Assembly: GCF_003334765.1 (NCBI RefSeq)
Contig: NZ_QOWT01000001.1
Strand: one strand, 5' to 3'
Length of the DNA: 64,000 bases
Origin: Escherichia coli
GTDB lineage: Bacteria > Pseudomonadota > Gammaproteobacteria > Enterobacterales > Enterobacteriaceae
Below the pieces are notes generated by a model. The model worked only from the letters and a program-made list of their open reading frames with translations. It made no database searches and was not told the DNA's origin. How positions within the stretch are numbered: the first letter of the stretch is position 1; each line of letters opens with the position of its first letter. The position numbers were made by a program, and so were the translations under genes. Positions 23,666 to 25,334 of the stretch are shown here, in pieces.

Positions 23666-24307
23666 TTACCCCTGTGTCTCTTCCCAGTCTGCCAGCGTAT
23701 ATAGCGTTGCCCCAGCTGCTGACATCTCCATAAACGCGTGCGCACTGTCCTGGGGCTGGATATTCACGCCACGACAACCATCGGTAATCACGTTTACCTT
23801 ATAACCTAACTGTAACGCGTCCAGCACGGTAAACTTCACGCAATAGTCAGTAGCCAGGCCCATAACGATCAATTCATCGATTTCATGATCGCGTAACCAG
23901 TCATCGAGAGAGGTTTTCTGCCGACGGCCGTTATCAAAAAAGGCACTGTAACTGTCAACTAAAGGATTTTCGCCTTTATGGAACACCGCTGCGATCGCTT
24001 TTTGGTGCAGTAACGGATGTAATTGTGCGCCTTCACTGTTCTGCACACAGTGATCTGGCCAGAAGGTTTGTGGCAAACCGTCGAGTTGGCCTGGCGTATA
24101 AGGCTCTACACCGTGCTGACTGGCAAAACTGCCGTGATTCGCCGGGTGCCAGTCCTGACTGGCGATAACCGCTTCACCGCGCGACTGGCACCAGTCAATC
24201 AGGCGGTTAGCGACATCCACCGTACTGTCACCTTCCGGCACGGCGAGCGCGCCACCAGCACAGAAATCATTTTGTAAATCGACCAGTAACAGGGCGCGAG
24301 GGGGCAT
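23666..24307 (-). CDS. pncA: nicotinamidase/pyrazinamidase
   Basis: ORF track 23666..24325; start trimmed to ATG 24307 with AAGGAG SD (MPPRALLLVDLQNDF, 213 aa). Confidence 0.92.
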   Translation of the reverse strand: MPPRALLLVDLQNDFCAGGALAVPEGDSTVDVANRLIDWCQSRGEAVIASQDWHPANHGSFASQHGVEPYTPGQLDGLPQTFWPDHCVQNSEGAQLHPLLHQKAIAAVFHKGENPLVDSYSAFFDNGRRQKTSLDDWLRDHEIDELIVMGLATDYCVKFTVLDALQLGYKVNVITDGCRGVNIQPQDSAHAFMEMSAAGATLYTLADWEETQG

Positions 24308-24317
24308 TACAGTCTCC

Positions 24318-25334
24318 TTAATCATCCGGCGTCAGTTCGCCGCGCAGGTTTTGGCTCATGGCCTTGCGAATGGTTTCAGTATCCAGTTCCTGGCTAAGCA
24401 GGTAATGCAGTTTGGTTAGCGTGGCTTCTACAGTCATATCTGCACCGCCAATTACGCCGGCATGGGCGAGGGCGTTACCGGTGGCATAACCACCCATGTT
24501 CACTTTACCGGACATACATTGTGTCAGGTTGACCACCACAATACCGCGATCGCTGGCTTCTTGTAATTCCTGCAGGAAGGCTTTGTTTTGTGGCGCATTA
24601 CCCACGCCATAGGAGCGCAGAATCAATGCTTTCACCGGTTGGCGCAGAAAATTGCGCACGACGTCAGCAGAAATCCCTGGATAAATCGTCACTACGCCAA
24701 TTGGTTGTGGGGTGATTGGATGAACGATTAATTCCCCTTCACCGTGCGGGGCGGGTGGCGTATTCAAACGACGAATATGGATACCTGCTTCCAGTAACGG
24801 AGGAAGGTTTGGAGAGGCAAACGCATCAAAACCATCGGCATGGGCTTTGGTAGTGCGGTTGCCGCGATACAATCGGTTATTGAAAAAGAGCGTTACTTCG
24901 TTGATCGGATAATTCGCCGCAACGTACAACGCATTCAGCAGATTAATTTGTCCGTCAGAGCGTAACTCAGCCAGCGGGATTTGTGACCCTGTCACAATGA
25001 CCGGTTTACCGAGATTCTCGAGCATGAACGACAGCGCAGAGGCGGTATACGCCATCGTGTCGGTGCCGTGCAGAATGACAAAACCATCATAGTCGTCATA
25101 GTGCGCTTTAATATCTTCAGCAATATGCTGCCAGTCTTCCGGCGTCATATCTGAAGAATCCATCAGCGGCGTATATTCATGAATGGTGAAATCTGGCATC
25201 TCCGGGCGATGGAATTCCGGCATCAGCGCCAGTTGGCGTTGTAGATGACCTGACACCGGTATATAACCCTGCTCGGAACGCTGCATCCCGATGGTCCCGC
25301 CCGTGTAGGCAACGTAAATTGATTTCTTTTGCAT
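24318..25334 (-). CDS. ansA: cytoplasmic L-asparaginase I
   Basis: ORF track 338 aa; TGGTIGM asparaginase signature. Confidence 0.93.
   Translation of the reverse strand: MQKKSIYVAYTGGTIGMQRSEQGYIPVSGHLQRQLALMPEFHRPEMPDFTIHEYTPLMDSSDMTPEDWQHIAEDIKAHYDDYDGFVILHGTDTMAYTASALSFMLENLGKPVIVTGSQIPLAELRSDGQINLLNALYVAANYPINEVTLFFNNRLYRGNRTTKAHADGFDAFASPNLPPLLEAGIHIRRLNTPPAPHGEGELIVHPITPQPIGVVTIYPGISADVVRNFLRQPVKALILRSYGVGNAPQNKAFLQELQEASDRGIVVVNLTQCMSGKVNMGGYATGNALAHAGVIGGADMTVEATLTKLHYLLSQELDTETIRKAMSQNLRGELTPDD

What the first reader, a model, noticed from the sequence alone, without database searches (positions are those of the whole stretch)
24300..24325. ansA stop and pncA start separated by only 10 nt with a strong SD inside the ansA 3' end
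ansA ends at 24318 and pncA starts at 24307, both on the minus strand, with AAGGAG upstream of the pncA ATG lying within the last ansA codons. The asparaginase and the nicotinamidase are therefore likely co-transcribed and translationally linked, coupling two amidohydrolases of unrelated pathways that both release ammonia.
Basis: seen in the sequence. Interest (0 to 1): 0.25.

Follow-up and report, generated by a model that had tools for sequence, protein, structure and literature searches.

The report
Ordinary ansA–pncA operon junction
This is the well-known junction between two co-transcribed E. coli genes, asparaginase I (ansA) and nicotinamidase (pncA), where the second gene's ribosome-binding site sits right after the first gene's stop codon; it is a common, already catalogued arrangement.

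Summary
On the minus strand the sequence reads GAT GAT TAA GGAGACTGTA ATG: ansA stops at 24320-24318, pncA starts at 24307, and the spacer is 10 nt. One detail is wrong. Only the 'AA' of the TAA stop belongs to ansA; the GGAG core of the Shine-Dalgarno (SD) lies in the spacer, not in the last ansA codons.

The window is E. coli, and RefSeq annotates exactly these genes. The junction is present in all 5,426 complete E. coli genomes. pncA follows ansA in 80 of 80 other Enterobacteriaceae/Erwiniaceae species, usually with stop + GGAG + 5-6 nt + ATG. GGAG is conserved while the rest of the spacer drifts.

Co-transcription is well supported and already published: a 2023 paper lists this pair (distance 10, transcript 'ansApncA', from EcoCyc) among 203 E. 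coli pairs with +9 to +12 nt spacers. Strict translational coupling is not shown. No RNA structure hides the pncA start site, and that paper favours independent initiation for this spacing class.

The 'two ammonia-releasing amidases' link is weak. In more distant bacteria pncA sits next to pncB or nadE, never ansA.

Verdict: known and ordinary; low interest.

The parts
24318..25334 (-). ansA, cytoplasmic L-asparaginase I (338 aa); first gene of the bicistronic unit
   Evidence: ORF; RefSeq annotation; NCBIfam equivalog NF006998 at 693 bits (cut-off 376) and TIGR00519 type I asparaginase; E = 3e-230 to PDB 2P2D, E. coli L-asparaginase I
24318..24320 (-). ansA stop codon TAA
   Evidence: Read directly. 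Across 81 sequences (window plus 80 species) the stop is TAA in 62, TGA in 17 and TAG in 2.
24314..24319 (-). Shine-Dalgarno AAGGAG for pncA. The core GGAG is 24317-24314 in the spacer; only the 'AA' (24319-24318) belongs to the ansA stop codon.
   Evidence: Duplex with the anti-SD is -9.2 kcal/mol. GGAG directly after the stop in 54/81 sequences; GGAG within -16 to -3 of the start in 70/81; per-column frequency 0.84-1.00. GGAG-to-ATG spacing is 5-6 nt in 63/81.
24308..24317 (-). 10-nt intergenic spacer GGAGACTGTA
   Evidence: Spacer length is 9-10 nt in 64/81 sequences. Positions after GGAG are unconstrained, at about 0 bits.
23666..24307 (-). pncA, nicotinamidase/pyrazinamidase (213 aa), with ATG at 24307-24305; second gene of the unit
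   Evidence: RefSeq annotation; NCBIfam equivalog NF008623 at 417.5 bits (cut-off 174), aligned 2-212 of 213; nicotinamidase structures in the PDB
24323..24325 (-). Alternative in-frame ATG (would give a 219-aa MIKETV-MPP... product overlapping ansA by 8 nt); rejected as the start
   Evidence: the ORF listing reports the longer ORF. This ATG exists only where the last ansA codons are GAT-GAN: 23 of 81 sequences. It has a poor upstream SD (median -2.1 kcal/mol against -8.8 for the annotated start).
25466..25488 (-). Intrinsic terminator of the upstream gene sppA (9-bp GC-rich stem plus T-run); marks the 5' limit of the region that can hold the ansA-pncA promoter
   Evidence: Terminator scan; sequence
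25335..25465 (-). ansA upstream region, where the operon promoter should lie (position not determined here)
   Evidence: Sequence. The strict sigma-70 scan found no hit on this strand. Only the proximal ~75 nt align with E. albertii.
23625..23657 (.). Perfect 11-bp inverted repeat between the convergent pncA and ydjE stops; candidate 3'-end hairpin of the transcript (no T-run on either side)
   Evidence: arms 23625-23635 and 23647-23657; fold z-score -2.78. It did not pass the terminator scan.

Best explanation
This is the internal junction of the known E. coli bicistronic transcription unit ansA-pncA. One mRNA starts upstream of ansA, downstream of the sppA terminator, and runs through both genes.

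pncA has its own strong, evolutionarily conserved Shine-Dalgarno sequence (GGAG). It is placed immediately after the ansA stop codon and 5-6 nt before the pncA ATG. The site is not buried in RNA structure, so 30S subunits can most likely initiate there on their own. Because the stop and the start are only 10 nt apart, some ribosomes finishing ansA may also reinitiate, giving at most partial coupling.

What is shown: the anatomy, the conservation, the lack of an occluding structure, and the published operon assignment. What is inferred: the split between independent initiation and reinitiation.

The pairing of the two enzymes is a lineage-specific gene-order feature of Enterobacteriaceae/Erwiniaceae, not evidence of a shared pathway.
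For: - Sequence and annotation.
- E. coli population: the junction is present once, uninterrupted, in 5,426/5,426 complete genomes.
- Other species: pncA is directly downstream of ansA in 80/80. The spacer is 9-10 nt in 64/81 sequences. GGAG is conserved at 0.84-1.00 per column while the neighbouring spacer bases carry about 0 bits. SD duplex energy is <= -8 kcal/mol in 71/81.
- Signals: no terminator-like or promoter-like site on the minus strand inside the unit. No excess synonymous constraint in the ansA 3' end: 0.739 against 0.734 gene-wide.
- RNA structure: junction fold z = +1.05. Mean P(unpaired) of the RBS is 0.47 against 0.45 for the surrounding RNA across 81 sequences, and removing upstream ansA RNA does not open it. 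No Rfam family overlaps the junction; the only hit below E = 1 in 22000-28000 is a weak chance-level miRNA match at 23608-23680.
- Literature: PMC10666635 lists 'b1768 ... 10 ... pncA + ansApncA' among 203 E. coli pairs with +9 to +12 nt spacers. 194 of the 201 characterized pairs are polycistronic, and the authors consider independent initiation more likely for this class.
Against: No transcript or translation measurement for this particular pair could be retrieved. Operon and TSS supplements were empty or not held.

A 10-nt distance falls inside the -8 to +10 range that PMC10666635 treats as 'predictive for TeRe' in its complex-enrichment analysis. So a substantial reinitiation share is not excluded.

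In the E. coli sequence the AUG itself is predicted to be mostly paired with early pncA codons (P unpaired 0.02-0.28). A passing ribosome could transiently relieve that.

The strict promoter scan also failed to find the ansA promoter. It is therefore not sensitive enough to exclude a weak internal promoter.
Confidence: 0.8

Rival explanations
1. Strict translational coupling by termination-reinitiation. Ribosomes that finish ansA stay on the mRNA, are captured by the GGAG right after the stop, and restart at the pncA ATG 10 nt downstream. PncA output then depends on, and is proportional to, AnsA translation.
For: The spacer is very short and tightly length-constrained: 9-10 nt in 64/81 sequences, with the SD abutting the stop in 54/81. 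PMC10666635 groups -8 to +10 nt as compatible with TeRe, and PMC6728339 found strict coupling for a 10-nt pair in Haloferax.
Against: In E. coli, reinitiation efficiency dropped in a gene-specific way already at +2 nt (5-70% loss) and was 80-100% lost at +38 nt. The same authors say the +10 class is 'more likely' to use independent initiation.

A strong, accessible SD is what independent initiation needs. Species with 20-26 nt spacers, and one with 158 nt, keep an equally strong SD at the same distance from the ATG. That shows the SD-to-ATG module works regardless of distance from the stop.

The two proteins are not subunits of one complex ('CMPLX not'), so the usual selective rationale of fixed stoichiometry is missing.
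Confidence: 0.15
2. Coupling by RNA unfolding. The pncA ribosome-binding site is sequestered by pairing with ansA coding sequence and is opened only when ribosomes translate through ansA.
For: In the E. coli sequence the AUG is predicted to be mostly paired.
Against: The pairing partner is downstream pncA sequence, not ansA: truncating the upstream RNA from 120 to 13 nt does not open the site. The junction fold is no better than shuffles (z = +1.05). Across 81 sequences the RBS is as open as the surrounding RNA, 0.47 against 0.45, and more open in only 43/81. There is no synonymous-site constraint in the ansA 3' end.
Confidence: 0.03
3. pncA is expressed from its own promoter inside the ansA coding region, and read-through from ansA contributes little. 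The close spacing would then be only genome compaction.
For: The promoter scan is insensitive: it did not find even the ansA promoter. Internal promoters are common in E. coli operons (general knowledge).
Against: No promoter-like site on the minus strand in 23300-25800. No conserved synonymous sites in the last 60 ansA codons. No terminator after ansA, so read-through is unavoidable. The EcoCyc-derived table lists the polycistronic unit 'ansApncA'.
Confidence: 0.05
4. The pairing is functionally selected. One version is co-release of ammonia. A more plausible version is that AnsA supplies aspartate, the precursor of de novo NAD synthesis through NadB, while PncA feeds NAD salvage, so the operon co-ordinates two inputs to NAD.
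For: The adjacency is stable across 80 species spanning two families. The aspartate-to-NAD link is established biochemistry (general knowledge).
Against: Distant PncA homologues (50-61% identity) lie next to pncB in 5 of 8 contexts, next to nadE in 1, and in one case next to an NrtR-type regulator; none lies next to an asparaginase. The cross-phylum synteny tables in PMC10666635 list PncA-PncB pairs, and no AnsA-PncA pair appears in the stored part. Stability of gene order within one family is expected from shared ancestry alone.
Confidence: 0.07

Closest known systems
E. coli K-12 transcription unit ansA-pncA (b1767-b1768), as compiled from EcoCyc in Huber et al. 2023 (PMC10666635, Supplementary Table S3)
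   Same: Same genes, same order and same 10-nt distance. The window's region is essentially 100% identical to E. coli BLR(DE3) and carries the same RefSeq annotation.
   Different: Nothing of substance. The window has the unit on the minus strand.
The '+9 to +12 nt' class of E. coli same-strand gene pairs (203 pairs, 7% of unidirectional pairs; PMC10666635)
   Same: The spacer is just long enough to hold an SD and too short for a terminator plus a promoter. These pairs are almost always polycistronic (194/201), and independent initiation is thought more likely.
   Different: None. This pair is an explicit member of the list.
Overlapping-gene translational coupling by termination-reinitiation (ATGA / TGATG overlaps, e.g. 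trpB-trpA, hyfH-hyfI)
   Same: Stop and start codons are close together, with an SD just upstream of the restart codon.
   Different: Here there is no overlap. The SD is in the spacer, not inside the upstream ORF. The products are not subunits of one complex. Dependence of pncA translation on ansA translation has not been shown.
pncB-pncA, nadE-pncA and nrtR-pncA NAD-salvage clusters of other bacteria
   Same: pncA is the downstream gene of a tightly packed pair (gaps from an overlap up to a few nt in L085, L087, L088, L090 and L091).
   Different: In those clusters the partner gene belongs to the same pathway. In Enterobacteriaceae/Erwiniaceae the partner is ansA, which has no established pathway link.

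Membership tests
Polycistronic operon (ansA-pncA transcription unit) | Adjacent genes on the same strand with an intergenic distance too short for a terminator plus a promoter | tested here: met
   10-nt spacer, both genes on the minus strand
Polycistronic operon (ansA-pncA transcription unit) | No intrinsic terminator between the genes, and no conserved internal promoter | tested here: met
   No minus-strand terminator-like or promoter-like site between 25466 and 23666. Synonymous-site entropy of the last 60 ansA codons is 0.739 against 0.734 gene-wide. The scan is insensitive, so a weak promoter is not excluded.
Polycistronic operon (ansA-pncA transcription unit) | A single transcript experimentally shown to span both genes | not testable with these tools
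   Secondary source only: PMC10666635 Supplementary Table S3 marks pncA '+' with transcript 'ansApncA', taken from EcoCyc. No primary data were retrieved.
Polycistronic operon (ansA-pncA transcription unit) | Gene order conserved in related genomes | tested here: met
   80/80 species loci and 5,426/5,426 E. coli genomes
Translational coupling by termination-reinitiation | Stop and start overlap, or are separated by a very short distance (-8 to about +10 nt) | tested here: met
   +10 nt, at the upper edge of the range used in PMC10666635
Translational coupling by termination-reinitiation | Translation of the downstream gene depends on ribosomes reaching the upstream stop codon | not testable with these tools
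   Needs a reporter fusion with premature stop codons. No such data were found for this pair.
Translational coupling by RNA unfolding | The downstream translation-initiation region is sequestered by pairing with the upstream ORF | tested here: not met
   Fold z = +1.05. RBS accessibility is 0.47 against 0.45 for the background across 81 sequences, and removing upstream RNA has no effect.
Shine-Dalgarno-led initiation site | A purine-rich match to the 16S 3' end, 5-9 nt upstream of the start codon, and conserved | tested here: met
   AAGGAG, 6-nt spacing, -9.2 kcal/mol. GGAG in 70/81 sequences, with spacing 5-6 nt in 63/81. Only 0.72% of window ATGs have an upstream match as strong.
Type I (cytoplasmic) L-asparaginase, AnsA | Full-length match above the curated cut-off of the equivalog model | tested here: met
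   NF006998 at 693 bits (cut-off 376); TIGR00519 at 478 bits (cut-off 260.5); PDB 2P2D at E = 3e-230
Nicotinamidase/pyrazinamidase, PncA (isochorismatase-like hydrolase) | Full-length match above the curated cut-off of the equivalog model | tested here: met
   NF008623 at 417.5 bits (cut-off 174), residues 2-212 of 213; nicotinamidase structures 2WT9, 1ILW and 3PL1

The most novel reading that the evidence does not exclude
The near-invariant placement of GGAG directly against the ansA stop codon, with a 9-10 nt spacer, might be selected to make ribosomes that finish ansA restart on pncA. Alternatively, a ribosome pausing at the stop might occlude the pncA site. Either way PncA synthesis would be tied to AnsA translation. 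In Enterobacteriaceae this would link nicotinamide salvage to asparagine breakdown and aspartate supply for de novo NAD synthesis.
Probability: 0.06. Interest if true: 0.3.

Novelty: already known. Interest (0 to 1): 0.06.

Why it matters
It matters little. The genes, their order, the 10-nt spacer and the bicistronic transcript are already in RefSeq, EcoCyc and a published table. The arrangement is shared by about 200 other E. coli gene pairs.

The modest added value is comparative. The stop-GGAG-N5-6-ATG layout is under clear purifying selection across Enterobacteriaceae. The ansA-pncA pairing is lineage-specific, whereas pncA pairs with NAD genes elsewhere. Natural variants with 20-158 nt spacers exist, and these could serve as ready-made test cases for whether spacing affects PncA output.

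Tried and rejected
1. Alternative pncA start at 24325 (219-aa product overlapping ansA by 8 nt). Rejected: it is present in only 23/81 sequences, it arises as a by-product of GAT-GAN codons, and it has no SD.

2. An AnsA-PncA fusion by frameshift or read-through. Rejected: the frame of pncA relative to ansA is not conserved (37/30/14 across the three frames), and there is no SD upstream of the stop.

3. A structured RNA element or known RNA family at the junction. No Rfam match overlaps it, and the fold is no better than shuffles.

4. A NadR-type operator upstream of ansA. None was visible by eye in the 166-nt region; this was not tested formally.

5. Literature. Full-text searches for ansA with pncA returned no main-text discussion of the operon. 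Several apparent hits were author names or 'PNCAR'.

6. Experimental datasets. Frothingham 1996, Li 2014, Thomason 2015 and Schmidt 2016 are not held. The Conway 2014 supplements are not held, and the SMRT-Cappable-seq supplements do not mention either gene.

7. I did not run a further whole-database protein search to fix the exact taxonomic boundary of the ansA-pncA adjacency. The answer would not change the verdict.

Full report
**What is in the sequence.** Read on the minus strand, window 24440-24200 contains ...CCG GAT GAT TAA GGAGACTGTA ATG CCC CCT....
- The TAA at 24320-24318 ends a 338-codon ORF (24318-25334).
- The ATG at 24307-24305 begins a 213-codon ORF that ends at 23666.
- The spacer is 10 nt (24317-24308).
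- AAGGAG occupies 24319-24314. Only its first two bases, the AA of the stop codon, belong to ansA. The GGAG core is intergenic and lies 6 nt from the ATG.

The statement that the SD lies 'within the last ansA codons' is not.

**Identity.**
- A 2.3-kb stretch around the junction matches all 5,426 complete E. coli genomes in RefSeq, and is essentially 100% identical to strains 300709 and BLR(DE3).
- RefSeq annotates ydjE, pncA (bifunctional nicotinamidase/pyrazinamidase), ansA (asparaginase) and sppA, with the same 10-nt ansA-pncA gap.
- Both proteins pass their NCBIfam equivalog cut-offs: NF006998 at 693 bits against 376, and NF008623 at 417.5 bits against 174.
- AnsA has E = 3e-230 to the solved E. 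coli L-asparaginase I, 2P2D. PncA matches solved nicotinamidases.

**Is it more than chance?**
- The hexamer AAGGAG is not enriched in the window: 17 found against 20.8 ± 4.9 expected.
- Only 0.72% of the 2,214 ATG triplets in the window have an upstream anti-SD match as strong as -9.2 kcal/mol.
- Conservation settles it. A genome-collection scan with AnsA returned 80 loci, from Escherichia through Citrobacter, Salmonella, Enterobacter, Klebsiella, Kosakonia and Cedecea to Erwinia and Mixta. pncA is immediately downstream in all 80.
- The spacer is 9 or 10 nt in 64 of 81 sequences (window included). The stop is followed directly by GGAG in 54.
- In the 9-10 nt class, the four bases after the stop are G/G/A/G at 0.97/1.00/0.95/0.84 frequency. 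The next spacer positions carry 0.01-0.17 bits.
- GGAG lies 5-6 nt from the start codon in 63 of 81 sequences, and the SD duplex energy is <= -8 kcal/mol in 71 of 81.

This is the signature of purifying selection on a working ribosome-binding site.

**Which start codon?** The ORF listing reports a longer ORF from an ATG at 24325 (MIKETV-MPP...) that would overlap ansA by 8 nt. That ATG exists only where the last two ansA codons are GAT-GAN. It is present in 23 of 81 sequences and has essentially no SD (median -2.1 kcal/mol). The annotated 213-aa start at 24307 is correct.

**Co-transcription.**
- Ten nucleotides cannot hold a terminator and a promoter.
- The pattern scan finds the sppA terminator at 25488-25466, but no terminator-like or promoter-like site on the minus strand from there to the end of pncA.
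- A conserved promoter hidden in the ansA 3' end would constrain synonymous sites. Normalised third-position entropy over the last 60 codons is 0.739, against 0.734 for the whole gene. The resampled mean is 0.734 with sd 0.029. No such element is seen.
- No Rfam family overlaps the junction; the only hit below E = 1 is a weak chance-level miRNA match at 23608-23680.
- The junction is uninterrupted in 5,426 of 5,426 E. coli genomes. The most divergent hit differs by indels elsewhere (ansA is flagged as frameshifted there) and a T-to-C change in the spacer; the stop, GGAG and ATG are unchanged.
- The pair is already published. Huber et al. 2023 (PMC10666635) found 203 E. coli same-strand pairs with +9 to +12 nt spacers. 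194 of the 201 characterized pairs are on polycistronic transcripts according to EcoCyc. Their Supplementary Table lists 'b1768 unidirectional 10 ... pncA + ansApncA'.

**Translational linkage.** Two mechanisms are recognised (PMC12548453).

*RNA unfolding.*
- The 120-nt junction RNA folds at -23.9 kcal/mol, against -26.9 ± 2.9 for shuffles (z = +1.05).
- Across 81 sequences the mean unpaired probability of the RBS (-14 to +2) is 0.47, against 0.45 for the rest of the 120-nt window. It is higher than the rest in only 43 of 81.
- In E. coli the AUG is predicted to pair with early pncA codons, not with ansA. Trimming the upstream RNA from 120 to 13 nt does not open it.
- This mechanism is therefore not supported.

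*Termination-reinitiation.*
- It is physically plausible at +10 nt.
- The available E. coli experiments, on three other gene pairs, show gene-specific losses of 5-70% already at +2 nt and 80-100% loss at +38 nt.
- Species whose spacer has grown keep a strong SD at the normal distance from the ATG. Examples are two Citrobacter species (20 nt), two Siccibacter species (24 and 26 nt), Salmonella arizonae (26 nt) and Klebsiella indica (158 nt). So the SD-ATG module functions independently of the stop.
- The two proteins are not subunits of one complex ('CMPLX not'), which removes the usual rationale for strict coupling.

My best estimate is a shared mRNA with mainly SD-driven independent initiation at pncA. 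Some reinitiation is possible but unproven.

**Functional pairing.** Both enzymes are amidohydrolases that release ammonia, but nothing links them beyond position.
- A search of 1.84 billion representative proteins with PncA gave homologues at 50-61% identity. I examined eight of their genomic contexts.
- Five have nicotinate phosphoribosyltransferase (pncB) directly upstream. The two contig-truncated neighbours were confirmed as pncB by NCBIfam.
- One has NAD synthase upstream. One of the pncB contexts also carries an NrtR-type regulator.
- None contains an AnsA-like sequence (tblastn).
- The cross-phylum synteny tables of PMC10666635 likewise list PncA-PncB, and no AnsA-PncA pair appears in the stored text.

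The ansA-pncA adjacency is thus a lineage-specific arrangement of Enterobacteriaceae and Erwiniaceae. One could speculate on a link through aspartate, the precursor of de novo NAD synthesis, but I found no evidence for it.

**Verdict.** Co-transcription is well supported and already catalogued. Strict translational coupling is unproven and, on current evidence, less likely than independent initiation. The suggested functional meaning is unsupported. This is a known, ordinary operon junction.

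Noticed in passing
window 25335-25500; L002 2436-3392: The sppA-ansA intergenic region is variable within E. coli. The window (K-12/B-like) has 166 nt. O157:H7 and some other strains carry a 711-nt SIMPL-domain gene inserted there.
   Followed up: partly
L005, L014, L024, L033, L049 and others, about 2430-2500 (upstream of ansA): In many Enterobacteriaceae the sppA terminator hairpin and T-run lie only about 25-35 nt upstream of the ansA ATG. That leaves almost no room for a promoter. In those species ansA-pncA may depend on a promoter inside sppA or on terminator read-through.
   Followed up: no
L073 3518-3675 (Klebsiella indica): A 158-nt insertion lies between the ansA stop and the pncA start. 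It has terminal inverted repeats GAGCCTATCCCA...TGGGATAGACTC and looks like a small MITE-type element. A new strong SD (AAGGAGG) is kept in front of pncA. No strict terminator or promoter match was found.
   Followed up: partly
window 23625-23657: A perfect 11-bp inverted repeat (TGGCCTACAAT / ATTGTAGGCCA, 11-nt loop) sits between the convergent stops of pncA and ydjE. The fold z-score is -2.78, but there is no T-run on either strand, so it is not a canonical intrinsic terminator. The GGCCTAC motif resembles the end of REP elements (from memory, not tested).
   Followed up: partly
L092 (E. coli eco-241), aligned to window 24208-24417: This strain has a 1-nt insertion in ansA (annotated as frameshifted) and a 4-nt deletion early in pncA. 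These could be pseudogenisation or assembly errors. The spacer differs only by T to C.
   Followed up: partly
L085 1807-3133; L083 22-2751: In distant bacteria pncA sits in compact NAD-salvage clusters: pncB / NrtR-like NUDIX regulator / pncA / 2'-phosphotransferase / PARG-like gene, or nadE / pncA / NUDIX.
   Followed up: no
window 24023-24277 (+): An 84-aa TTG-start ORF lies antisense to pncA. Nothing supports it as a gene, and it is most likely spurious.
   Followed up: no
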